49,168 nt of DNA from Escherichia phage 4A7. Numbering within the stretch: the first letter of the stretch is position 1; each line of letters starts with the position of its first letter. The stretch lies in sequence record NC_049946.1. One strand, given 5' to 3'. This document shows, one piece after another, positions 18,807-48,894 of this stretch. The notes under the pieces are model-generated. The model saw only the letters and a list, made by a program, of their open reading frames with translations. It was not told where the DNA came from and did no database searches. The translations under genes were made by a program, and so were the position numbers.

Positions 18807-18864
18807 ATTTTATAACCCAGATACGGGTGCCAGAAATGGCGCCTTTTTTATTTGTGGAGTGAAT

Positions 18865-20793
18865 ATGGCAGTACAGATTTCAGGCGTGCTGAAAGACGGT
18901 GCAGGAAAACCGATACAGAACTGCACCATTCAGCTCAAAGCAAAACGTAACAGCACCACGGTTGTGGTGAACACGGTGGCCTCAGAAAATCCGGATGAAG
19001 CCGGACGTTACAGCATGGATGTCGAGTATGGCCAGTACAGCGTTATCCTGCTGGTTGAAGGTTTTCCGCCTTCACATGCCGGGACCATCACCGTGTATGA
19101 GGATTCTAAGCCGGGGACGCTGAATGATTTTCTGGGGGCCATGACGGAAGAGGATGTCATGCCGGAGGCATTGCGTCGTTTTGAGGTAATGGTGGAGGAT
19201 GTGGCACGCAACGCTGAAGCCGCCTCTCAGAGCGCAGCGGCAGCAAAGAAATCAGAAACAGCAGCGGCATCGTCCAGGAACGCGGCGAAAACATCAGAGA
19301 CGAATGCAGGTAACAGCGCGAAAGCGGCAGCTTCTTCAAAAACAGCCGCACAAAACGCAGCAACAGCGGCAGAACGTTCAGAGACAAATGCCCGTGCGTC
19401 AGAAGAAGCCTCCGCAGACAGTGAAGAGGCTTCCCGCCGTAATGCAGAGTCAGCCGCTGAAAATGCCGGAGTCGCCACCACAAAAGCGCGGGAGGCTGCA
19501 GCAGACGCAACAAAGGCCGGGCAGAAAAAGGATGAGGCTCTGTCGGCAGCGACACGAGCTGAAAAGGCGGCAGACCGCGCAGAAGCCGCAGCGGAAGTGA
19601 CTGCAGAGCCCTATGCGAATATAGTGCCGCCGCTGCCTGATGTGTGGATACCGTTTAACGATTCACTGGATATGATTGCGGGTTTTTCTCCGGGCTATAA
19701 AAAAATAGCTATTGGTGACGATGTGGTTCAGGTCGCCAGTGATAAACAGGTTAATTTCAGTCGCGCATCAACGGCAACATATATCAACAAATCTGGCGAA
19801 CTGAAAACGGCGGAAATTAATGAGCCGCGATTTGAGTGTGATGGCCTGCTTATTGAGGGACAAAGAACGAACTACATGCTCAATTCGGAAAGTCCAGCCA
19901 GCTGGGGGAAGTCATCAAACATGGATGTGCCCGAAACTGGGACGGATAGTTTTGGTTTTACTTATGGAAAGTTTGTCTGCAACGATTCTCTGGTTGGGCA
20001 AACTTCGGCTATTAATATGGCATCAATTGCTGCAACAAAGTCAGTTGATGTCTCAGGCGATAACAAGTACGTGACAACCTCATGCCGTTTTAAAACAGAA
20101 CGACAGGTAAGGTTACGTATACGGTTTGATAAGTATGATGGTAGTGCAACAACTTTTCTTGGCGATGCGTACATTGATACGCAAACGCTTGAAATTAATA
20201 TGACAGGTGGTGCTGCCGGCAGAATTACGGCACGAGTCAGGAAGGATAAGACCACGGGCTGGATTTTTGCAGAGGCAACGATTCAGGCAATTGATGGTGA
20301 GTTAAAAATAGGCTCTCAGATACAGTATTCTCCTGAGCAGGGTGGGGCAACAGTATCTGGTGACTATATTTATCTTGCCACCCCACAAGTAGAGAATGGG
20401 CCGTGTGTATCATCATTTATTATTTCAGGAGGCAGCGCAACGACAAGAGCCAGTGATTTGGTTAGTATCCCCACCAGAAATAATCTTTATAAGTTACCAT
20501 TTACTTTTTTACTTGAGATTCATAAAAACTGGGATATTGCACCAAACGCCGCACCCCGCGTGTGGGATATAGCAGCCAATACCGGGCAATCAGCAATTGC
20601 AGCAATCAACAGAGGTAGTGGTAAGTTATATATGAGTCTGTCAAACCCTTCAGGCTCGTATGTTAATAGCGCAGCGACAGATGTATTTGCAGAGAAAACC
20701 ACATTTGGATGTATTGCAAAAGCTGATGGTCACTTTCATGTGGTGACAAATGGTAAAGCGGTTAATGAAGTTTATTGTGAATATAATGGGTAA
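18865..20793 (+). pseudogene. stf: side tail fibre gene stf, 3'-truncated by the IS66-family insertion (the stop codon is supplied by the IS end)
   Basis: N-terminus matches lambda Stf as recalled (MAVQISGVLKDGAGKPIQNCTIQLKAKRNSTTVVVNTV...GRYSMDVEYGQYSVIL), then an Ala-rich repeat region. The reading frame resumes after the IS at 23322. Confidence 0.8.
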
Positions 20794-20874
20794 GCGTAAA
20801 CTGACCGCCGTATGTAGCCATCAGACGAGAATTGGTAACTTAGACGCCCATCTGATATAGACGGACATCTAAGT

Positions 20875-21300
20875 ATGGAATTACAGGACTGGCGAAAAGA
20901 ACCTCGTAAAAACTATTCGAATGAATTCAAACTTCGTATGGTGGAACTGGCATCACAACCTGGAGCTTGTGTTGCACAGATTGCACGTGAAAATGGCGTC
21001 AATGATAATGTTATTTTCAAATGGCTCAGGCTCTGGCAGAACGAAGGGCGTGTTTCGCGGCGTCTTCCGGTAACGACCTCTTCTGACACTGGCGTTGAAT
21101 TATTACCTGTAGAAATAACGCCGGATGAGCAGAAAGAACCTGTGGCGGCCATTGCGCCGTCTTTATCCACTTCCACTCAGACCAGAGTCAGTGCCAGTTC
21201 CTGCAAGGTGGAATTCCGTCACGGTAACATGACGCTGGAAAATCCATCGCCAGAGCTGCTCACAGTGTTGATCCGTGAACTGACCGGGAGGGGAAGATGA
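20875..21300 (+). CDS. tnpA: IS66-family accessory protein TnpA (Orf1)
   Basis: First ORF of the IS66-type triad; HTH-like N-terminus. Confidence 0.8.
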   Translation: MELQDWRKEPRKNYSNEFKLRMVELASQPGACVAQIARENGVNDNVIFKWLRLWQNEGRVSRRLPVTTSSDTGVELLPVEITPDEQKEPVAAIAPSLSTSTQTRVSASSCKVEFRHGNMTLENPSPELLTVLIRELTGRGR

Positions 21301-21647
21301 TCTCACTCCCATCAGGTACCCGTATCTGGCTCGTTGCCGGCGTTACCGATATGCGTAAATCCTTCAACGGACTGGGAGAACAGGTACAACATGTGCTGAA
21401 TGATAATCCCTTCTCCGGTCACCTGTTTATCTTCCGTGGCCGACGGGGTGACACCGTCAAAATTCTTTGGGCTGATGCTGATGGTCTGTGCCTGTTCACC
21501 AAACGCCTGGAGGAAGGCCAGTTTATCTGGCCTGCGGTACGTGACGGCAAGGTATCCATTACCCGCTCGCAACTGGCAATGCTCCTCGATAAGCTGGACT
21601 GGCGTCAGCCAAAAACATCCAGCCGTAACTCACTGACAATGTTGTAA
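21297..21647 (+). CDS. tnpB: IS66-family Orf2 (TnpB)
   Basis: 116-aa ORF overlapping tnpA (ATGA), typical of IS66 orf2. Confidence 0.8.
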   Translation: MISLPSGTRIWLVAGVTDMRKSFNGLGEQVQHVLNDNPFSGHLFIFRGRRGDTVKILWADADGLCLFTKRLEEGQFIWPAVRDGKVSITRSQLAMLLDKLDWRQPKTSSRNSLTML

Positions 21648-21677
21648 AAAACTCCTGACCGCATTATAAAAACGGTC

Positions 21678-23291
21678 ATGAGTCAGAAATACCTCATTCG
21701 CATCGCAGAGCTGGAAAGGTTGCTCTCTGAGCAGGCTGAAGCCCTCCGTCAGAAAGACCAGCAACTGAGTCTGGTTGAAGAGACGGAAGCCTTCCTGCGC
21801 TCTGCACTGACACGTGCCGAAGAAAAGATCGAAGAAGATGAACGGGAAATAGAACATCTGCGGGCTCAGATAGAAAAACTGCGCCGGATGCTGTTCGGTA
21901 CCCGTTCTGAAAAACTGCGTCGTGAAGTTGAACTGGCTGAGGCTCTGCTGAAACAACGTGAACAGGACAGCGATCGTTACAGTGGGCGGGAAGACGATCC
22001 TCAGGTTCCCCGCCAGTTGCGACAGTCGCGCCATCGTCGTCCGTTACCGGCACACCTTCCCCGTGAAATACACCGCCTGGAGCCAGAAGAAAGCTGTTGC
22101 CCGGAGTGTGGCGGTGAGCTGGATTATCTGGGGGAAGTCAGCGCTGAACAGCTGGAACTGGTGAGCAGTGCCCTGAAAGTGATCCGCACAGAACGGGTAA
22201 AAAAAGCCTGTACAAAATGTGACTGTATTGTTGAAGCACCGGCGCCGTCCCGCCCGATAGAGCGTGGTATCGCGGGCCCCGGATTACTTGCCCGCGTGTT
22301 AACGGGAAAATACTGCGAACATCTGCCACTGTATCGTCAGAGTGAAATCTTTGCCCGCCAGGGTGTCGAACTGAGCCGGGCCTTACTCTCCAACTGGGTT
22401 GACGCGTGCTGCCAGTTAATGACACCGGTGAATGATGCCCTGTACCGTTATGTAATGAATACCCGCAAGGTTCACACTGATGACACACCGGTAAAGGTAC
22501 TGGCACCGGGTCAGAAAAAGGCGAAAACAGGGCGTATCTGGACGTATGTCCGGGATGATCGCAATGTGGGTTCGTCATCTCCTCCAGCGGTCTGGTTCGC
22601 GTACTCGCCGAACCGGCAGGGGAAACACCCGGAGCAACACCTCCGCCCCTTCCGGGGTATCCTGCAGGCGGATGCGTTCACAGGTTACGACAGGTTGTTC
22701 AGTGCAGAACGTGAAGGTGGTGCACTGACAGAAGTTGCGTGCTGGGCCCATGCCCGGCGAAAAATCCACGATGTATACATCAGCAGCAAAAGTGCGACGG
22801 CAGAAGAAGCCCTGAAGCGAATCAGTGAACTGTACGCCATCGAGGATGAAATACGGGGATTACCGGAGTCAGAGCGTCTTGCCGTCAGGCAGCAGCGAAG
22901 CAAAGTGTTACTGACGTCGCTGCATGAATGGATGGTGGAGAAGAATGGTACGCTGTCGAAAAAATCCAGACTGGGCGAAGCGTTCAGCTATGTACTGAAT
23001 CAGTGGGATGCCCTCTGTTATTACAGTGATGACGGTCTGGCGGAGGCGGATAATAATGCTGCGGAAAGAGCGCTTCGTGCAGTCTGTCTCGGAAAGAAAA
23101 ACTTTATGTTCTTTGGCAGCGATCACGGCGGCGAGCGTGGAGCACTGTTGTACGGGCTGATCGGCACCTGCCGTCTGAACGGTATCGATCCGGAAGCGTA
23201 TCTGCGCCATATCCTGAGCGTACTGCCGGAATGGCCTTCCAACCGAGTTGACGAACTCCTGCCATGGAACGTAGTACTCACCAATAAATAA
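21678..23291 (+). CDS. tnpC: IS66-family transposase (TnpC)
   Basis: 537 aa with an N-terminal coiled coil/leucine zipper, a CxxC...CxxC zinc motif and a DDE-type core; position and size typical of IS66 TnpC. Confidence 0.85.
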   Translation: MSQKYLIRIAELERLLSEQAEALRQKDQQLSLVEETEAFLRSALTRAEEKIEEDEREIEHLRAQIEKLRRMLFGTRSEKLRREVELAEALLKQREQDSDRYSGREDDPQVPRQLRQSRHRRPLPAHLPREIHRLEPEESCCPECGGELDYLGEVSAEQLELVSSALKVIRTERVKKACTKCDCIVEAPAPSRPIERGIAGPGLLARVLTGKYCEHLPLYRQSEIFARQGVELSRALLSNWVDACCQLMTPVNDALYRYVMNTRKVHTDDTPVKVLAPGQKKAKTGRIWTYVRDDRNVGSSSPPAVWFAYSPNRQGKHPEQHLRPFRGILQADAFTGYDRLFSAEREGGALTEVACWAHARRKIHDVYISSKSATAEEALKRISELYAIEDEIRGLPESERLAVRQQRSKVLLTSLHEWMVEKNGTLSKKSRLGEAFSYVLNQWDALCYYSDDGLAEADNNAAERALRAVCLGKKNFMFFGSDHGGERGALLYGLIGTCRLNGIDPEAYLRHILSVLPEWPSNRVDELLPWNVVLTNK

Positions 23292-23321
23292 GCGTCAATA
23301 CGGTGCTCCGTTGACGCTTAC

Positions 23322-24134: not shown

Positions 24135-24992
24135 CTAATTGGGTGATAACAGATCCTGTGTATGGGAGTTTCCCTTTTTGCGTGCGTTGATGCTGGTAAC
24201 GGCAAACGTCATGATGAACAAAACCGCGAATAAGACGACAATCGTCGGAGCTGGTGCGCTGTCGATAAAAAAGGACAACCAGACACCAGTCATTGACACT
24301 ATTACCGATATGCCAGTCGCCAGTAGGAGCGCAATATGAAAGCGTTGTGTCAGGAGTACCGCAATGGCGCCAGGCGCAATGAGCAGAGAAATGGAGAGAA
24401 TGATACCTACCGCTTTCAGCGTCGCCACAATGGTCAGAGAGACCATGCACAGCAGCCCATAATGCAGCCATCTCGTATGCAAACCGCTTACCTGCGCCTG
24501 TTGATAATCAAAGCTGAACAGCAAAAAATCCCGCCATTTTACGCTAATAACAAGTGTAACCAGCCCGGCAATAATCATCGTCTGGATTATATCGCCGATG
24601 GTTATCCCGAGCATGTCGCCGAAAAGAATATGGTCAAGATGTACGTCTGGTTTGACTGCAATATACAAGATCAGACCTGCGGCAAACATGCCAGAAAAAA
24701 CAATCCCCATCACTGTATCTTGCTTGATTCGGCTGTTGTCTTTCAGGTATCCCGTCGCCACCGCGCAGAATACTCCGGCGACGAATGCCCCTGTAGCCAA
24801 AGGTAACCCCAGAATCCAGGCAAGCACGATGCCAGGAAAAACCGCATGACTCATCGCGTCACCCATCAGTGCCCAACCTTTCAGGACCAGAAAGACCGAC
24901 AGCAGCGCACAGGGTATGGAAACTACCAGTGAAATCAGCAGTGCGTGACTCATAAAGGTGAACTGCAGTGGCTCCAGTAATAATGCCATCAT
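24135..24992 (-). CDS. sitD: Mn/Fe ABC transporter permease SitD
   Basis: 285-aa polytopic membrane protein, last gene of the sitABCD-type operon, overlapping sitC. Confidence 0.85.
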   Translation of the reverse strand: MMALLLEPLQFTFMSHALLISLVVSIPCALLSVFLVLKGWALMGDAMSHAVFPGIVLAWILGLPLATGAFVAGVFCAVATGYLKDNSRIKQDTVMGIVFSGMFAAGLILYIAVKPDVHLDHILFGDMLGITIGDIIQTMIIAGLVTLVISVKWRDFLLFSFDYQQAQVSGLHTRWLHYGLLCMVSLTIVATLKAVGIILSISLLIAPGAIAVLLTQRFHIALLLATGISVIVSMTGVWLSFFIDSAPAPTIVVLFAVLFIMTFAVTSINARKKGNSHTQDLLSPN

Positions 24993-25846
24993 GAGCGATC
25001 CTCCAGCGCCTTATGCGCACGCCGACGATTTGCCAAAAGCCCATGGGTGGGCGCAAAGACAAATGCTAAAAGAAACAGCAGTGTCTGCGCCACCACGATG
25101 ATTCCACCTGTCGCGCCGTCCAGAAAGTAACTGACCCACGCGCCGAGGAAACTGGTTACACTGCCAATAGTTACAGCAATCATGAGCAGGCGGGGAAAAC
25201 GATCGGTTAACAACCATGCTGTTGCACCGGGAGTCACCACCAGACAGATCACCAGAAAGGCACCAACCGTTTGCAGCGCCGCAACGGTCGAAACCGACAG
25301 CAGGGTGAAGAAGAGGAGTTTTAATCTGCCCGGATGCAATCCAATAGCACGGGCGTGATTCTCGTCGAAAAAGGTCACCATAAGATCTTTCCATTTGAAA
25401 AAAAGCACGATGATCGAGAGAATGCCAATGATAGTGAGTTGCAGGATATCCGCCGGATCGATTGCCAGAATATTGCCCAGGACGATGGTCTGAATGTTCA
25501 CAGATGTCGGGTTCAATGACACCATAAACAGCCCCAGGCCAAAAAAGGACGAGAAGATCAGACCGATGATGGCATCTTCTTTTAAGCGGGTGCGTTGGTT
25601 AAGAAACAGCATGCTGCCCGCAGCCAGTCCGCCGGAAAAGAAGGCTCCCAGAGAAAACGGAAGCCCCAGCATATATGCCCCCGCAACACCCGGGACAATA
25701 GAGTGCGACAACGCATCGCCAATCAGCGACCAGCCTTTTAGCATCAGATAGCATGACAGGAAAGCGCAGAGACCGCCGACCATCGCCGAGACCCACATCG
25801 CATTGAGCATATATTCATAGCTGAAGGGTTCCAGTAGCACGTTCAT
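24989..25846 (-). CDS. sitC: Mn/Fe ABC transporter permease SitC
   Basis: 285-aa polytopic membrane protein, paralogous to sitD; overlaps sitB. Confidence 0.85.
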
Positions 25847-26670
25847 CTTTCTTCCCTCTGCACCGCTGACGGTCGATGAGCCACAAAAGGGCGTTCATCG
25901 TCAGTAATAATGCTTTCTTCCGAGCCGTTAAGTGTGACATGGCGCAGTACGCCGCTAAAAGCCAGCTCTAGGTTCTCGGCTGTAAAAGTGGTGTCTGTCG
26001 GCCCGCTTGCCAGGACGGTGCCTTTGACCATGACCGTATAATCGCAAAATGTCGTGACGGATCCGAGATTGTGTGTTGAGACAAGCATCGTTTTGCCTTC
26101 CGCGCGTAACTCCCTCAACAGGCTGATGATTTTGGCTTCGGTTTTCACATCAACGCCAGTAAAAGGTTCATCCAGCAGGATCACATCACCCTGCTGTGCA
26201 ATCGCTCTCGCCAGAAAGACGCGTTTCTTTTGTCCACCGGAAAGCTCGCCGATTTGTCGATGGCGAAAATTCACCATATCGACACGTTCCAGCGCATCGG
26301 TGACAATTTGACGATCCCTCTTTTTGGCGATACGCAACATACCCATATGCCCATAGCGGCCCATCATCACCACATCTTCCACCAGTACAGGAAATGACCA
26401 GTCAACCTCTTCTGACTGAGGGACGTAGGCAACCAGGTTTTTCTGTAACGCCTGTCGCGTGGGAATACCCAGAACAGATATCTTTCCGCTGGTCAGACGC
26501 ACAAATCCCATAATCGCTTTAAACAACGTCGATTTTCCGGAACCGTTTACCCCAACCAGAGCGGCAATAGATCCACTTGGTACTGTGAAGGATGCATCGC
26601 GCAGTGCTGTGTGCCCGTTATGCCAGGTGACAGCAACATCATTAACGACAATGCCTGCAGATTGCATCAT
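25843..26670 (-). CDS. sitB: Mn/Fe ABC transporter ATP-binding protein SitB
   Basis: Walker [13 protein letters not shown] signature LSGGQKKR, Walker B ILLDEP. Confidence 0.9.
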
Positions 26671-27584
26671 TATTTCTCCCTTTTCCCGGCTTTAATTCCC
26701 TGTACCAGCGTACTGGTAGTAACCTTAAGAAGGTCGATATACGTCGGTACCGGGCCGTTTTCTGTGCTCAGGGAATCGACATAGAGCACACCGCCGTAGT
26801 GTGCGCCGGTTTCACGCGCAACCTGACGCGCTGGTTTATCGGAAATCGTACTCTCGCTAAAGACTGCCGGGATATGATTTTTCTTAACTATATCAACAAC
26901 CTTACGTACCTGCTGCGGTGTTCCTTGTTGATCGGCATTAATCGGCCACAGATAAAGCTCTTTTAGCCCCAAATCGCGTGCGAGATAAGAAAAAGCCCCT
27001 TCACTGGTGACCATCCATCGCTGATTCTCAGGGAGTTCCGTAATCTGCTTACGCAGGGGGGCAAGGGTTTGGGTAATCTTGGCTTTATAAGTATCGGCAT
27101 TGCGTTGGTAGGTTTGTGCATTTGCCGGATCGTATTTTATCAACGCATCACGAATATTATCGACGTAAATCAGAGCATTATCTGGCGACATCCATGCATG
27201 GGGGTTAGGTTTGCCCTCATAGGGTCCTTCGGTGATCCCTACAGGCGTCACACCCGAAGAGACAATTACTTCTGGAACCCCATTGAGATGCTGGTAAAAG
27301 CGTTGGAACCACAATTCCAGATTCATACCATTGGCGAGAATCAGTTGTGCCCCCTGCGCACGTTTAATATCGCCAGGGGTAGGCTGATACTCATGAATTT
27401 CTGCACCAGGCTTGGTTATGGATGAGACTTCTGCAGCATCTCCCGCCACGTTTTTGGCCATATCCGCGATGATGGTAAATGTTGTAATGACCTTAAATTT
27501 TTCAGTTGCACTTGCCTGAAATGCGATCGAGCAGGTGAGTGCGAGGCCCCCCAAGAGCATGGTTACTTTTTTTATTGAGCGCAT
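26670..27584 (-). CDS. sitA: periplasmic Mn/Fe-binding protein SitA
   Basis: 304 aa with signal peptide; cluster-9 (MntC/YfeA/SitA-type) solute-binding protein; first gene of the operon. Confidence 0.9.
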
Positions 27585-28499: not shown

Positions 28500-28664
28500 C
28501 TGCTGCGCCATATGGGTTGGACTGAAGCGGCTGACCTGATTGTTAAAGGTATGGAAGGCGCAATCAACGCCAAGACCGTAACCTATGACTTCGAACGTCT
28601 GATGGAAGGCGCTAAACTGCTGAAATGTTCAGAGTTTGGTGATGCGATCATCAAGAATATGTAA
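28500..28664 (+). other. icd: phage-borne 3' end of icd (isocitrate dehydrogenase), the core of attP
   Basis: In-frame translation [54 protein letters not shown] matches the Icd C-terminus as recalled. e14 and phage 21 integrate into icd and carry a replacement 3' end. Confidence 0.85.
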
Positions 28665-28777: not shown

Positions 28778-29920
28778 CTATGCTGTTTTGATATCTACGA
28801 TAATCCAGTCTTTACCACGATCATCATTGTATCGGTCGGTCATTTTTCTGGATTTATGGCCTAACAACTTTTGCGTATCCAGACCCTGTTCCCGATATAA
28901 CCGTTCTGACAGAGATCGCTGCTCATGAAATGTGGGCGCAGTTCCTTGCTCCCATTTTATGCCACATTTTTCCCTGGCCTTTTTAAAAGCCGTTGTCAGA
29001 GTATTCGCAGAAACCTGGTCTCCTCTGTTTGCTTGAGAGGTTGTGTGACGGTAATGGACCAGATATTTACTAACAACAGCATCCCTGCACTGAGATATAA
29101 CTTCACGAAGGGTAATATTCAGAGCATCGCATTTCAGGTTAAGCGGAATAGCAAGTTTTGAACCGGTTTTTTCCTGAGTAATGTGCAACATGTCGTCCCA
29201 GATATCAGAGAATTTCAAATTGCAGATATCGCCTAAACGTTGTCCAGTGACAAGAGCAAGTAGCATCCCGCATTTTAAATAGGGCTGCCGTCTGCTTACG
29301 CTGTCAAATATTGCCTGCCATTCGGGCAGTGATAATCTTTGGCGGTTTACTCGATTTCGCGGTTGTTTTGTTGCCTGCGCTGGGTTAAATCCTGGCGGAA
29401 CATGTCCTGCGTGTTGTGCTTCTTTGAAGACGTCGATTAACACCATTCTCACGACTTGCGCCATCCTGTTATGACCTTCAGCCTTTACAGCATCAATTAT
29501 TTCGGCAATATCAAGTGCGGTAATATCCTTGAGGTGTTGCATTCCACAATGCTCACGGAAAAGACGAATGGGTTTGCCTTTTTGCCGATAGGAGTTGGGT
29601 CTTAGTTCATTATGTTGCAGCCTGTCCTCCTGGATAGAAATATATTTATCAAGCCATTCTGTCACCGTAATGTCTGAGCGCCTGCCTTTCATTCTTTCCA
29701 GACGCTCATTGACGCTTAATATTTGTCGGGTACGTTGTTCAGCAATAATGGTATTTGCTTCAGTAGCAACTTGTTTTGCTTCATTCTCATCAGTTCCTAA
29801 GCTATGAAAACGACCGGATAGTGGATGTTTGTATTGCCAATATACCTTTCCGGTTCGCTTATCTAATTTGCAATATAAATTGGGTATAGAGATTTTGTGA
29901 GATCGGGGTCTAGCAGCCAT
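28778..29920 (-). CDS. int: tyrosine integrase (lambda Int family, phage 21 / e14 IntE-like)
   Basis: 380 aa with a C-terminal catalytic domain (R...HxxR...Y, LLGHKSRKMTDRY); adjacent to the icd-containing attP and overlapped by xis. Confidence 0.9.
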   Translation of the reverse strand: MAARPRSHKISIPNLYCKLDKRTGKVYWQYKHPLSGRFHSLGTDENEAKQVATEANTIIAEQRTRQILSVNERLERMKGRRSDITVTEWLDKYISIQEDRLQHNELRPNSYRQKGKPIRLFREHCGMQHLKDITALDIAEIIDAVKAEGHNRMAQVVRMVLIDVFKEAQHAGHVPPGFNPAQATKQPRNRVNRQRLSLPEWQAIFDSVSRRQPYLKCGMLLALVTGQRLGDICNLKFSDIWDDMLHITQEKTGSKLAIPLNLKCDALNITLREVISQCRDAVVSKYLVHYRHTTSQANRGDQVSANTLTTAFKKAREKCGIKWEQGTAPTFHEQRSLSERLYREQGLDTQKLLGHKSRKMTDRYNDDRGKDWIIVDIKTA

Positions 29921-34046: not shown

Positions 34047-34424
34047 TTACGCAGGTAGGTAAAGATATGATTGTGGTGGCTTAATATTACTACCTAGAGC
34101 AGAGATAGGAATTGGTTCTTTATATCTTTCCACTTCACCAATTTTTATTGCGTAGGCCTTTTCTCTACCTGAATAATATGAGTCATAAAATTGCTTAGAA
34201 ATACCTGCGTGTTTTTCCGTCTTTTTCCAAAGAGATTCCGGTTCGTCACTTAGTATTGATTCAATACGGAATTGACCAACAACTTTACCTAATGGCATCG
34301 TGGCATAAATAACAACGGTGCTAATTTGCGGATTTTTGAATATACCTTTACGAAACTCGAACCGCTTTGTTCCGTTCAATATTTTTTCTGCAAACTCAGG
34401 CTTAATGGATAATAAAACTTTCAT
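34047..34424 (-). CDS. ASCH-domain (PUA-like fold) protein, cassette gene 2
   Basis: 125 aa; N-terminus MKVLLSIKPEFAEKILNGTKRFEFRKG carries the ASCH-type GxKxxExR signature; AT-rich codon usage; overlaps the upstream gene by 23 bp. Confidence 0.6.
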   Translation of the reverse strand: MKVLLSIKPEFAEKILNGTKRFEFRKGIFKNPQISTVVIYATMPLGKVVGQFRIESILSDEPESLWKKTEKHAGISKQFYDSYYSGREKAYAIKIGEVERYKEPIPISALGSNIKPPQSYLYLPA

Positions 34425-35475
34425 TTATCTTGCCTAACTCGATGATCTTTAAGAACTGCTCATTTGTGAGTTTAAAGTGACTCCATCGGAATGCACGCGA
34501 ACCATTTAGCCCCACATGATCTATTAAAATAGCACGATTGGGTCTCTTTGGCAAAGACAGATTGTATGTGAATCTTATAATGAAAGGGTATCGACGTTCT
34601 TTATAGATTTTTCTGAGTTCATCTTCAGAAAATACGCTAAAACGAATACAATAGTCTACAAAACTATCTTCGCTTAAAAATTCAGAAATATTTTTTACGC
34701 TCTCAACTACACATAATGTACTGGCTACAGAACGATAGCGAGCTGGCCCTTTTTTGTCTCCGGTTCTATAGATGACAATGATATCTCCTCTTTTCATTCC
34801 CATCACAGAACGCATTCCACATATGTAAATTTTATGAATGCTGTTAGCATGGGATATATCTTTGACAATATCTGGTGATTCATTTACAAGTTTTGAATCA
34901 GGGAATAGTCTAGTGTGATATTCGGGATAAATCGCCAGTAAATATTTGTTGGCCCTTGATGTCATTATTCGAGGGTAATCTAATAAAATATCACCATAAG
35001 GCTCATGCAAAGACCTCGCATATACAAACTCTTTCCCGTTATGTGTTTCTTTTTCACCATGAATGTAAAATCCGTACGTTTGGAAAAGTTTTATTAGATG
35101 GACGTGTTTGTCGAAAACAGTAACATAAATATCATCAGATTTTGATGAAAATGCATGGTCAAACGCTTTTTTTAGAAATCGTTGTCCGCGAAGGGTGCCT
35201 TTAGATTCAAATTTGAATGTTCCTATCTTTAGATGACGTCCTGGTGGGAGCGCTGGATTAATGTCATTTGCATCATCATTTTCTTTTAGATACATAAAAC
35301 CTTCGATTTTATGCTTGTCATCATAGAGCACATAAGCTGATTCTCCTTCTCTGGCTTTTTTTTCTAACCAAAGAGGAAACTCTTTATAATCTTTTTTTAA
35401 AGAGTCAAAAAATGGGTCATTGTGATCAAAATCAGAGAATTTCTCATATTTTAAAGTATCCATTAAGTTCTCCAT
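34402..35475 (-). CDS. unknown 353-357-aa protein, cassette gene 1 (likely start at the Met at 35463 with a GGAG RBS)
   Basis: Long AT-rich ORF immediately downstream of cI on the same strand; C-terminal half has a PUA/EVE-like pattern (KRGDIIVIYRTGDKKG...VVESVK); no catalytic motif recognised. Confidence 0.6.
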   Translation of the reverse strand: MENLMDTLKYEKFSDFDHNDPFFDSLKKDYKEFPLWLEKKAREGESAYVLYDDKHKIEGFMYLKENDDANDINPALPPGRHLKIGTFKFESKGTLRGQRFLKKAFDHAFSSKSDDIYVTVFDKHVHLIKLFQTYGFYIHGEKETHNGKEFVYARSLHEPYGDILLDYPRIMTSRANKYLLAIYPEYHTRLFPDSKLVNESPDIVKDISHANSIHKIYICGMRSVMGMKRGDIIVIYRTGDKKGPARYRSVASTLCVVESVKNISEFLSEDSFVDYCIRFSVFSEDELRKIYKERRYPFIIRFTYNLSLPKRPNRAILIDHVGLNGSRAFRWSHFKLTNEQFLKIIELGKINESFIIH

Positions 35476-38160: not shown

Positions 38161-38858
38161 AAAACATCGCCGCACAGATGGTTAACTTTGACCGTGAGCA
38201 GATGCGCCGGATCGCCAACAACATGCCGGAACAGTACGACGAAAAGCCGCAGGTACAGCAGGTAGCGCAGATCATCAACGGTGTGTTCAGCCAGTTACTG
38301 GCAACTTTCCCGGCGAGTCTGGCTAACCGTGACCAGAACGAACTGAACGAAATCCGCCGCCAGTGGGTTCTGGCTTTCCGGGAAAACGGGATCACCACAA
38401 TGGAACAGGTTAACGCAGGAATGCGCGTAGCCCGTCGGCAGAATCGACCATTTCTGCCATCACCCGGGCAGTTTGTTGCATGGTGCCGGGAAGAAGCATC
38501 CGTTATCGCCGGACTGCCAAACGTCAGCGAGCTGGTTGATATGGTTTACGAGTATTGCCGGAAGCGAGGCCTGTATCCGGATGCGGAGTCTTATCCGTGG
38601 AAATCAAACGCGCACTACTGGCTGGTTACCAACCTGTATCAGAACATGCGGGCCAATGCGCTTACTGATGCGGAATTACGCCGTAAGGCCGCAGATGAGC
38701 TTGTCCATATGACTGCGAGAATTAACCGTGGTGAGGCGATCCCTGAACCAGTAAAACAACTTCCTGTCATGGGCGGTAGACCTCTAAATCGTGCACAGGC
38801 TCTGGCGAAGATCGCAGAAATCAAAGCTAAGTTCGGACTGAAAGGAGCAAGTGTATGA
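38157..38858 (+). CDS. P: replication protein P (DnaB helicase loader)
   Basis: 233 aa, near-identical to lambda P as recalled (MKNIAAQMVNFDREQMRRIANNMPEQYDEKPQVQQVAQIINGVFSQLLATFPASLANRDQNE...). Confidence 0.95.
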   Translation: MKNIAAQMVNFDREQMRRIANNMPEQYDEKPQVQQVAQIINGVFSQLLATFPASLANRDQNELNEIRRQWVLAFRENGITTMEQVNAGMRVARRQNRPFLPSPGQFVAWCREEASVIAGLPNVSELVDMVYEYCRKRGLYPDAESYPWKSNAHYWLVTNLYQNMRANALTDAELRRKAADELVHMTARINRGEAIPEPVKQLPVMGGRPLNRAQALAKIAEIKAKFGLKGASV

Positions 38859-39157
38859 CGGGCAAAGAGGCAATTATTCATTACCTGGGGACGCATAAGA
38901 GCTTCTGTGCACAGGACGTTGCCGCGGTAACAGGCGCAACCGTAACCAGCATAAATCAGGCTGTGGCTAAAATGGCGCGGGCAGGAATCCTGGTCGTTGA
39001 TGGTAAGGTCTGGCGAACGGTGTATTATCGGTTCGCTACCAGAGAAGAACGGGAAGGAAAGGTGAGCGCGAATTTGATTTTTAAGGAGTGTCGCCAGAGT
39101 GCCGCGATGAAACGGGTATTGAGGGTATATAAAAGAACATCAATGGGTACACAATGA
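38855..39157 (+). CDS. ren: Ren
   Basis: Matches lambda Ren as recalled (MTGKEAIIHYLGTHKSFCAQDVAAVTGATVTSINQA...). Confidence 0.9.
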   Translation: MTGKEAIIHYLGTHKSFCAQDVAAVTGATVTSINQAVAKMARAGILVVDGKVWRTVYYRFATREEREGKVSANLIFKECRQSAAMKRVLRVYKRTSMGTQ

Positions 39158-39224
39158 TGAAACAGGTGAGTTGAGTTCAAACTGTAGTACAATTCTCTCC
39201 AGTTTGAACAGGAAAGAATATGCT

Positions 39225-39557
39225 ATGAACCCTTATATTTATCTTGGTGGTGCAATACTTGCAGAGGTCATTGGTACAACCTTAATGAAGTTTTCAGAAG
39301 GTTTTACACGGTTATGGCCATCTGTTGGTACAATTATTTGTTATTGTGCATCATTCTGGTTATTAGCTCAGACGCTGGCTTATATACCTACAGGGATTGC
39401 TTATGCTATCTGGTCAGGAGTCGGTATTGTCCTGATTAGCTTACTATCATGGGGATTTTTCGGCCAACGGTTGGACCTGCCAGCCATTATAGGCATGATG
39501 TTGATTTGTGCCGGTGTGTTGGTTATTAATTTATTGTCACGAAGCACACCACATTAA
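39225..39557 (+). CDS. emrE: small multidrug resistance efflux transporter EmrE
   Basis: 110 aa, matches E. coli EmrE as recalled (MNPYIYLGGAILAEVIGTTLMKFSEGFTRLWPSVGTIICYCASFWLLAQTLAYIPTGIAYAIWSGVGIVLISLLSWGFFGQRLDLPAIIGMMLICAGVL...); emrE is DLP12-associated in K-12. Confidence 0.9.
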   Translation: MNPYIYLGGAILAEVIGTTLMKFSEGFTRLWPSVGTIICYCASFWLLAQTLAYIPTGIAYAIWSGVGIVLISLLSWGFFGQRLDLPAIIGMMLICAGVLVINLLSRSTPH

Positions 39558-39566
39558 AAATAATTT
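39552..39566. repeat. 15-bp direct repeat CATTAAAAATAATTT, left copy (overlaps the emrE stop)
   Basis: Identical 15-mer recurs at 41625-41639; the two copies bracket the ybcK segment. Confidence 0.5.
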
Positions 39567-39812
39567 ATTTTTAAACGACTAAAATATGGAGGTTCGTATA
39601 TTTGTATGGGCCTCGTTTTATGCTTTTTGTTAATGTCTTTAGTTTTTATTCATTCTTTTGATCTTTCAAGACCATGGTGTAAGAAAATTGCAATACGATT
39701 ATTGTTGTATATTCAAGATAATGTGACCTTAATTGTCTTTTTAAATAAAAATTAAACAAAAATCATATCTCACCACTAAGGTTTATAAAAGCATACTTTA
39801 GCAGGTGTCACC

Positions 39813-41339
39813 ATGAAAAAAGCCATAGCATATATGCGATTTTCATCACCAGGTCAGATGTCTGGTGATTCATTAAACCGCCAGAGAAGGCTTATTACTG
39901 AATGGCTAAAGGTAAATAGTGATTATTACCTTGATACCGTAACGTATGAAGATTTGGGGTTAAGCGCATTCAATGGAAAGCATGCACAATCAGGAGCTTT
40001 TTCGGAATTTTTAGATGCTATAGAACATGGTTACATATTGCCAGGGACTACATTGTTAGTTGAAAGTCTGGACAGACTTTCAAGAGAAAAAGTCGGTGAA
40101 GCGATTGAGCGTCTGAAATTGATTTTGAATCACGGTATTGATGTTATAACTCTTTGCGATAATACAGTCTATAATATAGACTCATTGAATGAGCCATATT
40201 CATTAATAAAAGCCATACTTATAGCACAAAGGGCAAATGAAGAAAGCGAGATAAAGTCAAGTCGGGTTAAATTATCATGGAAGAAAAAACGGCAGGATGC
40301 ACTGGAATCAGGCACGATTATGACGGCGTCTTGTCCGAGATGGCTCTCATTGGATGACAAAAGAACAGCTTTTATTCCAGACCCCGACAGGGTGAAAACG
40401 ATTGAGCTAATTTTTAAACTCAGGATGGAAAGGCGATCATTGAATGCAATAGCTAAGTATTTAAATGATCATGCTGTAAAAAATTTTTCAGGAAAAGAAA
40501 GTGCATGGGGGCCTTCTGTAATTGAAAAATTATTAGCGAATAAAGCTCTGATAGGTATATGCGTACCTTCATATCGTGCAAGAGGGAAAGGGATAAGTGA
40601 AATCGCTGGCTATTATCCCAGAGTCATATCAGATGATTTGTTTTACGCTGTACAGGAAATTCGGTTGGCACCTTTTGGTATTAGCAATAGTAGCAAGAAT
40701 CCTATGCTAATAAATCTACTTCGAACAGTTATGAAGTGTGAGGCTTGTGGTAATACCATGATTGTTCATGCGGTATCTGGACGTTTGCATGGCTATTATG
40801 TTTGTCCGATGAGAAGATTACATCGATGTGACAGGCCATCAATAAAAAGAGATTTGGTTGATTATAATATCATTAATGAATTGCTTTTTAATTGTAGCAA
40901 AATTCAACCAGTTGAAAACAAGAAAGATGCTAATGAAACTTTAGAGTTAAAAATTATTGAGCTTCAGATGAAAATTAATAATTTAATCGTTGCATTGTCT
41001 GTCGCGCCTGAAGTTACCGCTATAGCAGAGAAAATAAGACTATTAGATAAGGAATTACGAAGGGCTTCGGTATCATTAAAAACTTTGAAGAGTAAAGGGG
41101 TGAGTTCACTTGGTGATTTTCATGCTATTGATTTAACCAGTAAAAATGGGCGAGAGCTATGTCGTACACTTGCCTATAAAATATTCGAAAAAATTATAAT
41201 TAATACAGATAATAAAACCTGTGATATCTATTTTATGAATGGCATTGTTTTTAAACACTATCCTTTAATGAAAGTAATATCCGCCCAGCAGGCGATAAGT
41301 ACTCTTAAATATATGGTTGATGGTGAGGTTTATTTTTGA
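39813..41339 (+). CDS. ybcK: large serine recombinase (YbcK-like)
   Basis: 508 aa; N-terminal resolvase/invertase catalytic domain (AIAYMRFSSPGQ...SLNRQ), central recombinase domain, Cys-rich zinc ribbon (CEACGN...CPMRRLHRC) and C-terminal coiled coil; AT-rich. Confidence 0.85.
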   Translation: MKKAIAYMRFSSPGQMSGDSLNRQRRLITEWLKVNSDYYLDTVTYEDLGLSAFNGKHAQSGAFSEFLDAIEHGYILPGTTLLVESLDRLSREKVGEAIERLKLILNHGIDVITLCDNTVYNIDSLNEPYSLIKAILIAQRANEESEIKSSRVKLSWKKKRQDALESGTIMTASCPRWLSLDDKRTAFIPDPDRVKTIELIFKLRMERRSLNAIAKYLNDHAVKNFSGKESAWGPSVIEKLLANKALIGICVPSYRARGKGISEIAGYYPRVISDDLFYAVQEIRLAPFGISNSSKNPMLINLLRTVMKCEACGNTMIVHAVSGRLHGYYVCPMRRLHRCDRPSIKRDLVDYNIINELLFNCSKIQPVENKKDANETLELKIIELQMKINNLIVALSVAPEVTAIAEKIRLLDKELRRASVSLKTLKSKGVSSLGDFHAIDLTSKNGRELCRTLAYKIFEKIIINTDNKTCDIYFMNGIVFKHYPLMKVISAQQAISTLKYMVDGEVYF

Positions 41340-41624
41340 GTAATAATCACTTTTTCAACCGTGCTATGGTATGAAAGTAAAGTAACTAATATGATATTAA
41401 CTATCTTGAACGAAGCGCCCTGAGCTATAGTTTTACTATAGGCACTGTCACTGGATGTTGGCATTCTTGCTCTAGTAGCTCAACAATACCCAATCACAAA
41501 ACAATTCACTGATAACAAACTTTGTGCACGTGCTTGGTTATGGCGAACAGGTGATGTTAACCTCTTGCCAGAATGCCACTCCACTTCATTAAGTATCTGA
41601 GCACCGAGAGGCTGGTCACGCCCC

Positions 41625-41639
41625 CATTAAAAATAATTT
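41625..41639. repeat. 15-bp direct repeat CATTAAAAATAATTT, right copy
   Basis: Perfect match to 39552-39566. Confidence 0.5.
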
Positions 41640-41663
41640 CTTTTGAATCGAGTGAAATAGGTT

Positions 41664-41690
41664 AGCCCGCATAAGTGCGGGCTGCTTTTT
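41664..41690 (+). terminator. intrinsic terminator between convergent ybcK-side and esterase genes
   Basis: Stem AGCCCGC/GCGGGCT with loop ATAAG, followed by GCTTTTT. Confidence 0.55.
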
Positions 41691-42732
41691 ACAGGTCAGC
41701 GTTTGTTTTTTGTTGTTGGGTAGCGGTTTTTATGGGGGTTCCCAGGTTTTTAGTAAACCACTCAACAACTCTGTTTATAATAATTGGCTGATACCATGTA
41801 TTATCGCCATGCTCGGCCCCTTCTACCAGCACGTACTCAGCGTTATCACCGTTCTTCTTCAACATCCTGAATAGTTTGGCGCTTTGCTCAGGTGAAACCA
41901 GAGTGTCTTTGCTACCATGCATAATAAGAAATGGGGGTTTTACTCCTTTCATATGTCCGATTGGACTGGCGTTTAGCGCTTTTTCTTTTGACGCTGTGAT
42001 GGGGGCTCCCGCAAAATTTCTGAATGCAGGGCCATTGATCATTAAGGCTTCGGTTACGGCAGGAGAGCGATGAACCTCCTGCACTGATTCAGGGAACCCC
42101 TCGCCAATATTCAACAAGTCAGAAATCCCATAAAGTGTGGCAACTGCCTGAACATCTGAGGATTGCTGAAGAAAGTCACCTTTATCAAAGGTTTTGTCAC
42201 CATTTGTAGTTCCCATCATCTGGGCAAGCCATCCACCGGCAGAGTCACCCAGAACTCCGATTCTTTGAGGATCAATCCCATAATTGCTGGCATGCTCTCT
42301 CAGGTAACGTATTGCAGCTTTTCCATCCTCAACTGGTGCTGGAAATGTATCAGGAATTGTTCTGTATTCTACAGCGGCCACAACAAAACCAGCTTCTGCC
42401 AGAGCCATTCTCATTTCAATAAATTTGTCATGTTCAGAAGACATGAATCCGCCGCCGGGATAATAAATAATGGCTGGTTTTAAATCATTTGTTCGCGGGA
42501 CAAGAACTGACATGTGAAGCTGTCTGACAGAACGAGTTCCTTTTATCTGGGAATAAACAACATCACCAATGAGATCGACCTGGTTTCTGGTCGGTGAAAC
42601 ACTAATGATATCTGCACCCGGGGTGTAACCAGGAAGATTAGTCTGGACAGGTGTTGCACAACTCCCGACCGACATGGCCATTGACATACCATACAATAGT
42701 GTTGCAGATGATAATATCTTGTTAATTTTCAT
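41689..42732 (-). CDS. alpha/beta-hydrolase fold esterase/lipase, probable lipoprotein
   Basis: 347 aa; signal peptide with lipobox-like VGSC; HSL-family motifs YYPGGGF and GDSAGG (nucleophile elbow GxSxG); C-terminal His. Confidence 0.7.
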   Translation of the reverse strand: MKINKILSSATLLYGMSMAMSVGSCATPVQTNLPGYTPGADIISVSPTRNQVDLIGDVVYSQIKGTRSVRQLHMSVLVPRTNDLKPAIIYYPGGGFMSSEHDKFIEMRMALAEAGFVVAAVEYRTIPDTFPAPVEDGKAAIRYLREHASNYGIDPQRIGVLGDSAGGWLAQMMGTTNGDKTFDKGDFLQQSSDVQAVATLYGISDLLNIGEGFPESVQEVHRSPAVTEALMINGPAFRNFAGAPITASKEKALNASPIGHMKGVKPPFLIMHGSKDTLVSPEQSAKLFRMLKKNGDNAEYVLVEGAEHGDNTWYQPIIINRVVEWFTKNLGTPIKTATQQQKTNADL

Positions 42733-43179
42733 GTTTTACATGCCTTGACTTATCGGATGAAATTCTCTTACTGAATTTAACGGCAGTTTAATAGCCGTAC
42801 AACTCGTGGTAGCCAGGGAAATATCCCAGTCGTGGTTAAGGTTGTACTTGACGGCTATTATTTCAACAATGCTTAAAGTGAGAGCTTAAGGTTATGCGTA
42901 TGTTTTACAGTCCGAGTAGATTCTGACCAATAGCTTCTTTGTATAATTCTGTCAGAAATAAATCTTGGCTTGCATGAAGTTTGAGACCTTATCTTGTTTG
43001 ATTATGAATAATCAATTCGCCATAATTGTATCACCGGAGCCTGAACAACTCCGGTGACTTCTGCGCTAAACGGGGACGTTTATGCGCACACACAATCCAA
43101 ACTCTCTTCTCCCTTCACAGATGCAGAAATGCACCTGCGTTTTTTTGCATCCAGCGTCTGACCTCTGTGGAGGTGAAGC

Positions 43180-45241: not shown

Positions 45242-46324
45242 TTAGAACTGATAAACCAGACCTACAGCGACGATGTCGTCGGTATCAATACCAGCTGTTT
45301 TGGTAAACTTACTATCGTCAATTAAGTTGATTTTGTAATCAACAAAAGTGGACATGTTTTTATTAAAGTAGTAAGTAGCACCGACATCGACATACTTGAC
45401 TAAGTCTCGGTCACCATGAACACCAAGGTCTTTACCTTTTGACTGAAGGTAAGCAACAGATGGTCGCAGACCGAAGTCAAACTGATATTGTGCTACTGCT
45501 TCAAAGTTTTGTGCTTTGTTTGCAATATGGTTATTACCAAAAACGGTCATATTCTGAGTTTCAGAATATGTGGTAGCCAGATAGATATTGTTCGCATCAT
45601 ATTTCAGGCCTGCAGCCCATACTTCCGCATTTTTGCCGGAGGCATTGAATTTGCTCTTACCATAGGCGACCTGACCGTCAGTGCGATCTGATTTAGCATA
45701 GGTTGCACCCACGCCGAATCCTTCATACTCATAAGTAGTGGAGAAACCGAAACCATCACCATTGACTTCAGTTACGTCAGTGCGGTCATTTTTACCCTGA
45801 TACTGAGCAGCAAAGTTCAGGCCATCGACCAGACCAAAGAAGTCGTTGTTACGATAAGTTGCAACACCAGTAGTGCGACCAGTCATGAACACATCTGTTT
45901 GGGTCCAGGTATCACCACCGAATTCTGGCAGGACGTCAGTCCACGCACCGATGTCGTATGCTACACCGTAGTTACGGCCGTAATCGATTGAGCCGTAATC
46001 ACCAAATTTCAGGCCTGCAAATGCAAGACGGGTTTTGTCTTTGGAAGAACCTTGAGATTCAGCACGGTTGCCTTTGAATTCATATTCCCACTGACCGAAA
46101 CCAGTCAGTTGATCGTTGATTTGGGTTTCACCTTTGAAGCCAAGACGGGCATAAGTAGTATCACCATCATCTGCATCATTAGAGGAGAAGTAGTGCTTGG
46201 CATTAACTTTCCCGTATAGATCCAGCTTGTTACTGTCTTTATTATAAATTTCAGCTGCCTGAGCAGACATCGCCATCAGTACTGATGCAGCTACAGCAGA
46301 AATTGCCACTGTTAATTTTTTCAT
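45242..46324 (-). CDS. nmpC: OmpC/OmpF-family general porin (NmpC / Lc-like phage porin)
   Basis: 360 aa; signal peptide [23 protein letters not shown], porin motifs ([35 protein letters not shown]) and a C-terminal Phe. Confidence 0.9.
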
Positions 46325-48882: not shown

Positions 48883-48894
48883 GGGCGGCGACCT
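48883..48894 (+). other. cosN, the 12-nt cohesive-end sequence (lambda type); cosB extends to about 49070
   Basis: ...GATCCGACAGGTTACG|GGGCGGCGACCTCGCGG... matches the junction of the lambda right and left ends as recalled; located ~175 bp upstream of the nu1 start. Confidence 0.8.

What the first reader, a model, noticed from the sequence alone, without database searches (positions are those of the whole stretch)
39171..39557. Multidrug efflux gene emrE carried in the nin region
A 110-aa SMR transporter matching E. coli EmrE lies immediately downstream of ren. This is a resistance-relevant cargo gene (quaternary ammonium compounds, ethidium and similar) on a phage that looks fully packageable, so it could move by lysogeny. 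The association of emrE with DLP12 is known; the point here is that the surrounding phage appears intact.
Basis: partly seen in the sequence, partly recalled or inferred. Interest (0 to 1): 0.45.

Follow-up and report, generated by a model that had tools for sequence, protein, structure and literature searches.

The report
Known emrE cargo on viable phage
An intact copy of the well-studied E. coli drug-efflux gene emrE sits between ren and the nin genes of a complete lambda-like phage, but this phage (Lambda_4C10 / 3W) and its emrE gene are already sequenced, annotated, published and shown to form plaques, so the finding is correct but ordinary.

Summary
A 110-aa EmrE gene (true CDS 39225-39557; the quoted 39171 is only the first TTG of the open frame) lies 67 nt downstream of ren. 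It is 109/110 identical to K-12 EmrE (I100V), passes NCBI's EmrE-specific model, and keeps E14, Y40, Y60, W63, G90 and G97.

The window is a circular permutation of a whole 49.2-kb lambdoid phage. It shows 1 mismatch in 49,168 to phage 3W and is identical to Lambda_4C10 (LR595861, genus Bievrevirus) apart from that record's adapter tail. cosN and a full lambda-type gene set are present. The only lesion seen is an IS66-family insertion that clips the non-essential side tail fibre.

The literature already covers the point. Mathieu et al. 2020 reported EmrE in two lambda genomes from this phage collection. bv_4C10 is released at about 5.5E6 PFU/mL and plaques on E. coli C. The sister phage Perceval carries a near-identical module (2601 nt, 99.9-100%), forms plaques, and transcribes emrE in DMEM but not strongly in LB.

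emrE is a self-contained roughly 420-bp cassette within a 4-kb low-GC island that replaces lambda's ren-ninB spacer (tR2). 68% of complete E. coli genomes already carry emrE. Any resistance gain from lysogeny is untested and probably small.

Verdict: confirmed, already known, low interest.

The parts
38855..39157 (+). ren (100 aa). Homology to lambda and ev017 ren stops at 39130, so the last ~9 codons belong to the island.
   Evidence: PHROG 142 Ren-like, E 3.8e-41; blastn boundaries; annotated Ren in LR595861 and OM475430.
39131..43179 (.). Low-GC cargo island of about 4 kb between ren and ninB/ybcN. It replaces the 73-bp ren-ninB spacer, which carries tR2, of lambda and ev017.
   Evidence: Lambda/ev017 homology ends at 39130; ev017 homology resumes at 43999 and DLP12 homology at 42997. 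GC is 27-45% versus 49.8% for the whole genome.
39148..39565 (+). emrE cassette: a 77-nt leader, the CDS and 8 nt beyond it. This unit recurs with the same boundaries in non-phage chromosomal contexts.
   Evidence: 92% identical block in the fliE-emrE-ybcL-ybcM islet of E. coli THO-003 and in E. whittamii/ruysiae next to folD.
39158..39224 (+). Conserved emrE leader. It holds a TACAAT -10-like hexamer (39188-39193), a 10-bp inverted repeat GTTCAAACTG/CAGTTTGAAC (39175-39184 / 39200-39209) and an AGGAAAG ribosome-binding site (39210-39216).
   Evidence: Alignment of three contexts. The consensus scan called no sigma-70 promoter here. The 3' arm of the palindrome is not conserved in other Escherichia species.
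39225..39557 (+). emrE CDS, 110 aa: an SMR-family proton/drug antiporter.
   Evidence: PDB 3b5d E 1.2e-69, 109/110 identical; NF042984 240.6 bits versus cutoff 226; PF00893; E14, Y40, Y60, W63, G90, G97 present; pS 0.30 versus pN 0.004 against the chromosomal allele.
39589..39614 (+). Terminator-like hairpin followed by GTTTTATGC, 32 nt after the emrE stop. It overlaps the start of ylcJ.
   Evidence: Terminator scan. The hairpin is kept in DLP12 with one-sided pair changes.
39606..39755 (+). ylcJ-like small ORF (49 aa).
   Evidence: ORF list; annotated ylcJ in K-12 and other RefSeq genomes; no family hit.
39813..41339 (+). ybcK, a large serine recombinase (508 aa) and cargo neighbour of emrE.
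   Evidence: Pfam Resolvase + Recombinase + Zn_ribbon_recom; PHROG 95 integrase, E 5.6e-120; 96% to K-12 ybcK at DNA level.
41689..42732 (-). alpha/beta-hydrolase (BD-FAE esterase) occupying the place of DLP12 ybcL-ybcM.
   Evidence: Pfam PF20434, E 5.5e-45; PHROG 3341 esterase; DLP12 homology gap 41379-42996.
48883..48894 (+). cosN, the lambda-type 12-nt cohesive end site. Together with nu1 (ATG 49072, continuing at window position 1) it shows the window is a circular permutation of a packageable genome.
   Evidence: Exact match; in-frame read across the junction; LR595861, assembled from virion DNA, starts inside this site.

Best explanation
This is a functional copy of emrE carried as a moron in the nin region of an active lambda-like temperate phage (Bievrevirus bv_4C10 / phage 3W).

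EmrE is a four-helix SMR protein. From established EmrE biochemistry, it works as an antiparallel homodimer that exchanges protons for cationic aromatic and quaternary-ammonium compounds (ethidium, methyl viologen, acriflavine, benzalkonium) through the shared Glu14 pair.

The gene is a self-contained roughly 420-bp cassette: conserved leader, ribosome-binding site, CDS, then a terminator-like hairpin. It sits in a 4-kb AT-rich island that replaces the ren-ninB spacer of lambda. In a lysogen it is expressed weakly and conditionally from its own leader. During lytic growth it is inferred to be read through from pR, because it has the same orientation and lies between ren and ninB.

Because the phage excises, packages and forms plaques, the gene can move to new hosts by lysogeny. 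The expected phenotype is a modest dosage-type increase in tolerance to EmrE substrates, and only in hosts that lack emrE or under inducing conditions.

Shown: gene identity and integrity, selection on the protein, island anatomy, phage identity and viability (the last from the literature). Inferred: the promoter, read-through, lysogenic transfer of this particular phage, and any MIC effect.
For: Identity and integrity.

Purifying selection: 24 synonymous versus 1 non-synonymous difference between the phage and chromosomal alleles.

Cassette and island boundaries.

Phage completeness: cosN and nu1 and the gene set.

Identity to isolated phages: 100% to LR595861, OM475428 and OM475430; 1 mismatch in 49,168 to 3W.

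Viability: bv_4C10 is produced at about 5.5E6 PFU/mL, titrated on E. coli C and inducible. Perceval, which shares 2601 nt of P-ren-emrE-ybcK at 99.9-100%, forms plaques and makes 1.7E5 particles/mL.

Expression: Perceval emrE is induced in DMEM.

Dosage dependence: a 42-fold emrE amplification was the first adaptive step under paraquat, and emrE/DLP12 amplification occurred under erythromycin.

Prevalence: 132 complete E. coli genomes hold at least 80% of the window's right half as a prophage, many at 100% identity.
Against: No direct test that a bv_4C10/3W lysogen is more tolerant to any EmrE substrate was found.

No consensus sigma-70 promoter was detected upstream.

68% of complete E. coli genomes already carry emrE, so transfer often adds nothing new.

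Phage D2 propagates with a NinB::EmrE fusion lacking TM1 and E14, so emrE is dispensable to the phage.

Lysogenisation was demonstrated for Ur-lambda in the 2026 preprint, not for bv_4C10 itself.
Confidence: 0.58

Rival explanations
1. emrE is essentially a neutral hitch-hiker on the phage. It is intact because it was recently copied from, or exchanges with, host copies. It contributes nothing measurable to lysogen drug tolerance because expression is too low and most hosts already have it.
For: Low expression in LB in Perceval. Benefit in the laboratory required a 42-fold amplification. emrE is present in 3693/5426 genomes. The viable phage D2 has a disrupted emrE. Only 10 of 50,697 phage records carry it.
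Against: Strong purifying selection between phage-type and chromosomal alleles (pN 0.004 versus pS 0.30). The module is conserved at 96-100% across many prophages and isolated phages. emrE is condition-specifically induced in DMEM. The leader is more conserved than synonymous sites.
Confidence: 0.25
2. The selected function of the phage-borne copy is physiological rather than drug resistance. Candidates are export of osmoprotectants (betaine/choline) and pH/osmotic homeostasis, or tolerance to host-derived cations in the gut or in macrophages.
For: RefSeq names K-12 EmrE a 'multidrug/betaine/choline efflux transporter'. The authors of PMC9928086 note induction in DMEM and suggest a benefit for intravacuolar life. 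The phage carries other host-niche cargo: sitABCD, a porin and an esterase.
Against: No experiment in the retrieved literature tests this for a prophage copy. It is not exclusive of the drug-efflux reading, because the transport mechanism is the same.
Confidence: 0.15
3. The phage is defective, so emrE is stranded as in DLP12.
For: An IS66-family insertion truncates stf by 42 aa. nu1 appears cut by the window ends.
Against: The nu1 split is only a circular-permutation artefact and reads in frame across the junction. Side tail fibres are dispensable in lambda (established knowledge: lambda PaPa is stf-). The identical genome was assembled from virions starting at cosN. It gives plaques on E. 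coli C.
Confidence: 0.02

Closest known systems
E. coli K-12 EmrE (b0543) in cryptic prophage DLP12
   Same: 109/110 aa identical. The same neighbours and order are present: ren-emrE-ylcJ-ybcK ... ybcN-ninE-ybcO-rusA-ylcG-Q-porin-S-R-Rz at 88-96% DNA identity.
   Different: DLP12 is a 21-kb remnant at argU, with renD split by IS3, nmpC split by IS5 and no head or tail genes. Here the phage is complete, with attP next to an icd fragment. ybcL-ybcM are replaced by an esterase gene, and ren and the porin gene are intact.
Escherichia virus Lambda_4C10 (LR595861) / phages 1W and 3W (OM475428, OM475430), genus Bievrevirus
   Same: The same genome: 1 mismatch in 49,168 to 3W, and identical to 4C10 apart from a 39-nt adapter tail in that record. 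emrE is already annotated in all three records.
   Different: Nothing of substance; only the permutation point of the record differs.
Phage Perceval (OV696612), prophage 2 of AIEC strain LF82
   Same: The P-ren-emrE-ybcK module is 99.9-100% identical over 2601 nt, and 86% of the right half is shared at 99.2%. The phage is active and plaque-forming, and emrE is described as a DMEM-induced moron.
   Different: A different mosaic elsewhere in the genome.
Chromosomal emrE-ybcL-ybcM islet next to fliE in E. coli
   Same: The same 418-bp emrE cassette, including the leader, at 92% DNA identity with 1 aa difference.
   Different: There are no phage genes around it and no ybcK. It is the commoner location, with 2284 genomes having their best hit at 90-95% identity.
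Qac-type SMR genes on integrons and plasmids, and SMR genes of T4-like Acinetobacter phages
   Same: The same Pfam family, PF00893. Both are small cation exporters carried on mobile elements.
   Different: Only 33-54% identical. Scores are below the cut-offs of all Qac-specific NCBIfam models. The vehicles differ, and there is no integron attC here.

Membership tests
SMR family, EmrE subgroup (NCBIfam NF042984 / NF007087; Pfam PF00893) | Full-length match above the curated family cut-off | tested here: met
   NF042984 240.6 bits (cutoff 226), NF007087 239.1 (162), PF00893 121.5 (23.7), all covering 1-110 or 3-94.
SMR family, EmrE subgroup (NCBIfam NF042984 / NF007087; Pfam PF00893) | Membrane-embedded Glu14 (essential proton/substrate site) and the aromatic and glycine residues Y40, Y60, W63, G90, G97 | tested here: met
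   All are present at the expected positions. The only change from K-12 is I100V.
SMR family, EmrE subgroup (NCBIfam NF042984 / NF007087; Pfam PF00893) | Proton-coupled export of cationic drugs, giving a measurable resistance phenotype | not testable with these tools
   Inferred from 99% identity to the biochemically and structurally characterised protein. No assay of the phage-borne allele was found.
Phage moron (autonomously expressed cargo gene, not needed for the phage cycle) | Dispensable for phage growth | tested here: met
   Lambda, ev017 and phage 21 relatives lack it. The propagated phage D2 carries a disrupted NinB::EmrE fusion.
Phage moron (autonomously expressed cargo gene, not needed for the phage cycle) | Own promoter and terminator; transcribed in the lysogen independently of the repressor | tested here: inconclusive
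   A conserved leader with TACAAT and a downstream terminator-like hairpin are present, but no consensus promoter was called. In Perceval the gene is not at least 5-fold above background in LB but is induced in DMEM.
Phage moron (autonomously expressed cargo gene, not needed for the phage cycle) | Atypical base composition relative to the phage | tested here: met
   emrE 40.8% GC, leader 37%, ylcJ region 27% and ybcK 36%, against 49.8% for the genome.
Functional lambdoid temperate phage (Bievrevirus) | Complete cos, terminase, head, tail, int/xis, immunity, replication, Q and lysis modules within lambda packaging size | tested here: met
   The genome is 49,168 bp. cosN is at 48883-48894, nu1 is intact across the junction, and all modules are annotated. 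Exception: stf is truncated by an IS66-family element.
Functional lambdoid temperate phage (Bievrevirus) | Produces infectious virions | not testable with these tools
   Taken from the literature for the identical genome: PFU on E. coli C and induction by colicins. The LR595861 assembly starts at the cos end.

The most novel reading that the evidence does not exclude
The roughly 420-bp emrE cassette (39148-39565) may be a discrete mobile unit. Its identical boundaries in the phage nin region, next to fliE in E. coli and next to folD in other Escherichia species would then reflect repeated capture or deposition by lambdoid phages. Possibly the adjacent large serine recombinase YbcK is involved. 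On this reading much of the species-wide distribution of emrE in Escherichia traces to phage traffic. The conserved leader, in which a 9-bp insertion 39 bp upstream of emrE was selected under paraquat, would be an unrecognised regulatory element.
Probability: 0.12. Interest if true: 0.35.

Novelty: already known. Interest (0 to 1): 0.1.

Why it matters
It matters little beyond confirmation. It is a clean documented example of a bona fide, if clinically minor, efflux determinant carried by a plaque-forming temperate coliphage. That is uncommon, given that phages rarely encode resistance genes, as the authors of PMC6969025 themselves note. The practical risk is low. The gene is already present in about two thirds of complete E. 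coli genomes, is weakly expressed at single copy, and acts on antiseptic-type cations rather than front-line antibiotics. The case is of some use as a positive control for ARG-on-phage screens, and as a reminder that DLP12's right arm has living relatives.

Tried and rejected
(a) RNA element in the emrE leader. Rfam at permissive E-value found only a chance snoRNA hit (16.8 bits against a gathering score of 40, E 0.98). The single-sequence fold is no better than shuffles (z -0.82).

(b) The 10-bp palindrome flanking the TACAAT as a conserved operator. Its 3' arm is not conserved in E. whittamii, ruysiae, sp. E1V33 or albertii, so it was not pursued.

(c) A consensus promoter upstream of emrE. 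None was called.

(d) emrE linked to phage genes in other species. In 80 genome loci with EmrE relatives, none had P, Ren, YbcK, the esterase or NinB nearby. Only E. albertii had ybcL-ybcM. FliE/FliF/YedE/YedF were also absent from those loci.

(e) Defence-system membership of emrE, ybcK or the esterase. There were no PADLOC hits.

(f) 'Phage defective because nu1 is cut.' This was rejected as a permutation artefact.

(g) Literature search for the records OM475428, OM475430, PV340567 and PP925837. No paper in the library cites them. 'Lambda_4C10' as text found nothing.

(h) Lysogenisation data for bv_4C10. The 2026 preprint's lysogeny experiments used Ur-lambda, not bv_4C10.

Full report
**1. 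What is at the coordinates**

The ORF lister gives an open frame 39171..39557 (+), starting at a TTG and 128 aa long. The real gene is the 110-aa frame from ATG 39225. It is preceded by AGGAAAG at the right distance for a ribosome-binding site. The same start is annotated in LR595861, OM475430 and K-12.

The protein aligns end to end with PDB EmrE (3b5d and others) at E 1.2e-69. The single substitution is I100V. It exceeds the cut-off of NCBI's EmrE-specific model (240.6 against 226 bits) and of Pfam PF00893. It falls below the cut-offs of every Qac-specific model. Glu14, Tyr40, Tyr60, Trp63, Gly90 and Gly97 are all in place.

Against the diverged chromosomal allele, which is 92% identical at DNA level, there are 24 synonymous and 1 non-synonymous differences (pS 0.30, pN 0.004). 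The protein is therefore under strong constraint in both settings. The gene is neither silent by mutation nor disrupted.

**2. Surroundings**

ren (38855-39157) ends 67 nt upstream. Homology to lambda and to phage ev017 runs through O, P and ren and stops at 39130, inside the last codons of ren. In lambda and ev017 a 73-bp spacer with the tR2 hairpin leads straight into ninB.

Here about 4 kb of AT-rich DNA (27-45% GC against 49.8% for the genome) intervenes before the ninB/ybcN homologue at 43180. The island contains, in order:
- emrE;
- a terminator-like hairpin (39589-39614);
- the small ORF ylcJ;
- the large serine recombinase ybcK (Resolvase + Recombinase + zinc ribbon);
- on the other strand, a BD-FAE-type esterase.

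Compared with K-12 DLP12, the order ren-emrE-ylcJ-ybcK is kept at 96% identity. ybcL-ybcM are replaced by the esterase segment. Collinearity then resumes through ybcN, ninE, ybcO, rusA, ylcG, Q, the porin gene and the lysis genes. The window's right arm is therefore an undamaged relative of DLP12's right arm.

**3. The emrE cassette**

A 418-bp block, 39148-39565, recurs with the same boundaries in other settings. It comprises a 77-nt leader, the CDS and 8 nt beyond it.
- In many E. coli it lies next to fliE, as an emrE-ybcL-ybcM islet without phage genes.
- In E. whittamii and E. ruysiae it lies downstream of cysS-ybcI-ybcJ-folD.

The leader is nearly invariant between the contexts and contains a TACAAT hexamer and a 10-bp inverted repeat. 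The consensus scan called no promoter there. The repeat's 3' arm is not kept in other Escherichia species. Neither Rfam nor folding supports an RNA element. The promoter assignment therefore stays inferential.

**4. The phage**

The window is a circular permutation of one whole genome. It differs from phage 3W at 1 of 49,168 positions. It equals Lambda_4C10 (LR595861) apart from 39 nt of sequencing adapter at the end of that record.

cosN (GGGCGGCGACCT) is at 48883-48894. The small terminase gene starts at 49072 and continues in frame at window position 1. LR595861, assembled from virion DNA, begins inside cosN.

All lambda-type modules are annotated. One lesion exists. An IS66-family element (20790-23321, with an 8-bp target duplication) removes the last 42 residues of the side tail fibre relative to phage 21. 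Side fibres are dispensable in lambda (established knowledge).

**5. What the literature already says**

- Mathieu et al. 2020 (PMC6969025) isolated temperate coliphages released by infant-gut E. coli. [quoted passage not shown] The LR595861 record carries the same wording.
- A 2026 preprint uses 'Bievrevirus bv_4C10 (Genbank LR595861)' as its reporter prophage. It is spontaneously released at about 5.5E6 PFU/mL, titrated on E. coli C, and induced by colicins.
- Misson et al. 2023 (PMC9928086) showed that Perceval is an active, plaque-forming prophage. Its P-ren-emrE-ybcK module is 99.9-100% identical to the window over 2601 nt. emrE was not among the genes at least 5-fold above background in LB but was induced in DMEM.
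- A survey of urinary E. coli found emrE to be the most frequent resistance-associated gene in predicted-intact prophages (47 prophages). Another survey lists it among prophage-borne determinants.
- PHROGs already has an SMR family filed under morons.

**6. How common**

- Ten of 50,697 phage records encode EmrE at 99% identity or more, all of them lambdoid coliphages.
- Among 5,426 complete E. coli genomes, 3,693 contain the cassette. 1,408 have a best hit at 95% or more (the prophage type) and 2,284 at 90-95% (the fliE-linked type).
- 1,399 genomes have the whole P-ren-emrE-ybcK arrangement.
- 132 genomes hold at least 80% of the window's right half as a prophage, many at 100% identity and broken at about 28500, where attP lies next to an icd fragment.

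**7. Mechanism and likely consequence**

By identity to the characterised protein, the product is a proton-coupled exporter of aromatic and quaternary cations. It works as an antiparallel dimer through Glu14 (established EmrE biochemistry; structures listed).

On the phage it behaves as a moron. It is dispensable, compositionally foreign, followed by a terminator-like hairpin, and conditionally transcribed in a lysogen. It is oriented so that pR transcription should also cross it during lytic growth; this last point is an inference.

Laboratory evolution shows that benefit scales with dose. It took a 42-fold amplification under paraquat and amplification under erythromycin to see an effect. 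One extra, weakly expressed copy should therefore give at most a small change, and none where a resident copy exists. No MIC comparison of lysogen against cured strain was found. Phage D2, a lambda hybrid in which NinB residues 1-31 are fused in frame to EmrE residue 31 onward, shows that the phage does not need the gene.

**8. Verdict**

The observation and the interpretation are correct, but the facts are already in the sequence databases and in print. Novelty: already known. Interest is low. The remaining open points are the real promoter and regulation of emrE, whether the 420-bp cassette or ybcK is mobile, and whether lysogens gain any tolerance. These are minor and are listed as next steps.

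Noticed in passing
window 20790-23321 (stf 18859-20793): An IS66-family element (three ORFs: HTH_Tnp_1, TnpB_IS66, DDE_Tnp_IS66; annotated ISEc23 in a related prophage) is inserted in the 3' end of the side tail fibre gene with an 8-bp target duplication. It removes the last 42 aa relative to phage 21 Stf, yet the phage still forms plaques.
   Followed up: yes
window 34047-35475 (- strand): Two genes next to the repressor, in the position of lambda rexAB, match the PADLOC candidate defence system PDC-M11 (A: E 2.5e-133; B, an ASCH-domain protein: E 5.9e-51). This is a probable prophage-encoded anti-phage pair of unknown mechanism.
   Followed up: partly
window 39813-41339: A full-length large serine recombinase (ybcK; the YMRFSSPGQ motif is at the N-terminus) sits beside emrE, in addition to the phage's tyrosine integrase (28778-29920). 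Its substrate and role are unknown. It is absent from the chromosomal emrE-ybcL-ybcM islet.
   Followed up: partly
window 41689-42732 (- strand): A BD-FAE / alpha-beta-hydrolase esterase gene replaces the ybcL-ybcM of DLP12. This is another cargo gene of unknown role.
   Followed up: partly
window 24135-27584 (- strand): The sitABCD manganese/iron ABC transporter operon lies between the tail fibre region and attP, as in phage 21, ev017 and Perceval. It is a known moron, reported on 70% of the infant-gut lambdas.
   Followed up: partly
window 45242-46324 (- strand): An intact nmpC/ompD-type porin gene lies between Q and the holin gene. The K-12 DLP12 copy is split by IS5.
   Followed up: partly
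L007 (OM475427.1 phage D2) 1200-1538: D2 is 100% lambda through P-ren-tR2-ninB codon 31 and then joins in frame to emrE codon 31. The NinB::EmrE chimera lacks TM1 and Glu14. It looks like an illegitimate lambda x 3W-type recombinant and is annotated as an SMR transporter.
   Followed up: yes
L001 (LR595861.1) 49169-49207 and 1-10: The last 39 nt of the public Lambda_4C10 record are Nextera adapter sequence (CTGTCTCTTATACACATCT...). The record begins inside cosN, consistent with assembly from cos-cut virion DNA.
   Followed up: yes
window ~28500-28664: Prophage copies in E. coli genomes break at about window 28501. A short isocitrate dehydrogenase fragment is annotated there in phage 3W, implying integration into icd as for phage 21 and e14.
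   Followed up: partly
L009-L011 (E. whittamii, Escherichia sp. E1V33, E. ruysiae) 3923-4342: The emrE cassette in these species has the same boundaries as in the phage but lies next to folD/ybcJ/ybcI/cysS. Its upstream flank still resembles the island-specific 3' end of ren (AAGAACATCAATG). This hints at prophage ancestry of chromosomal copies.
   Followed up: partly
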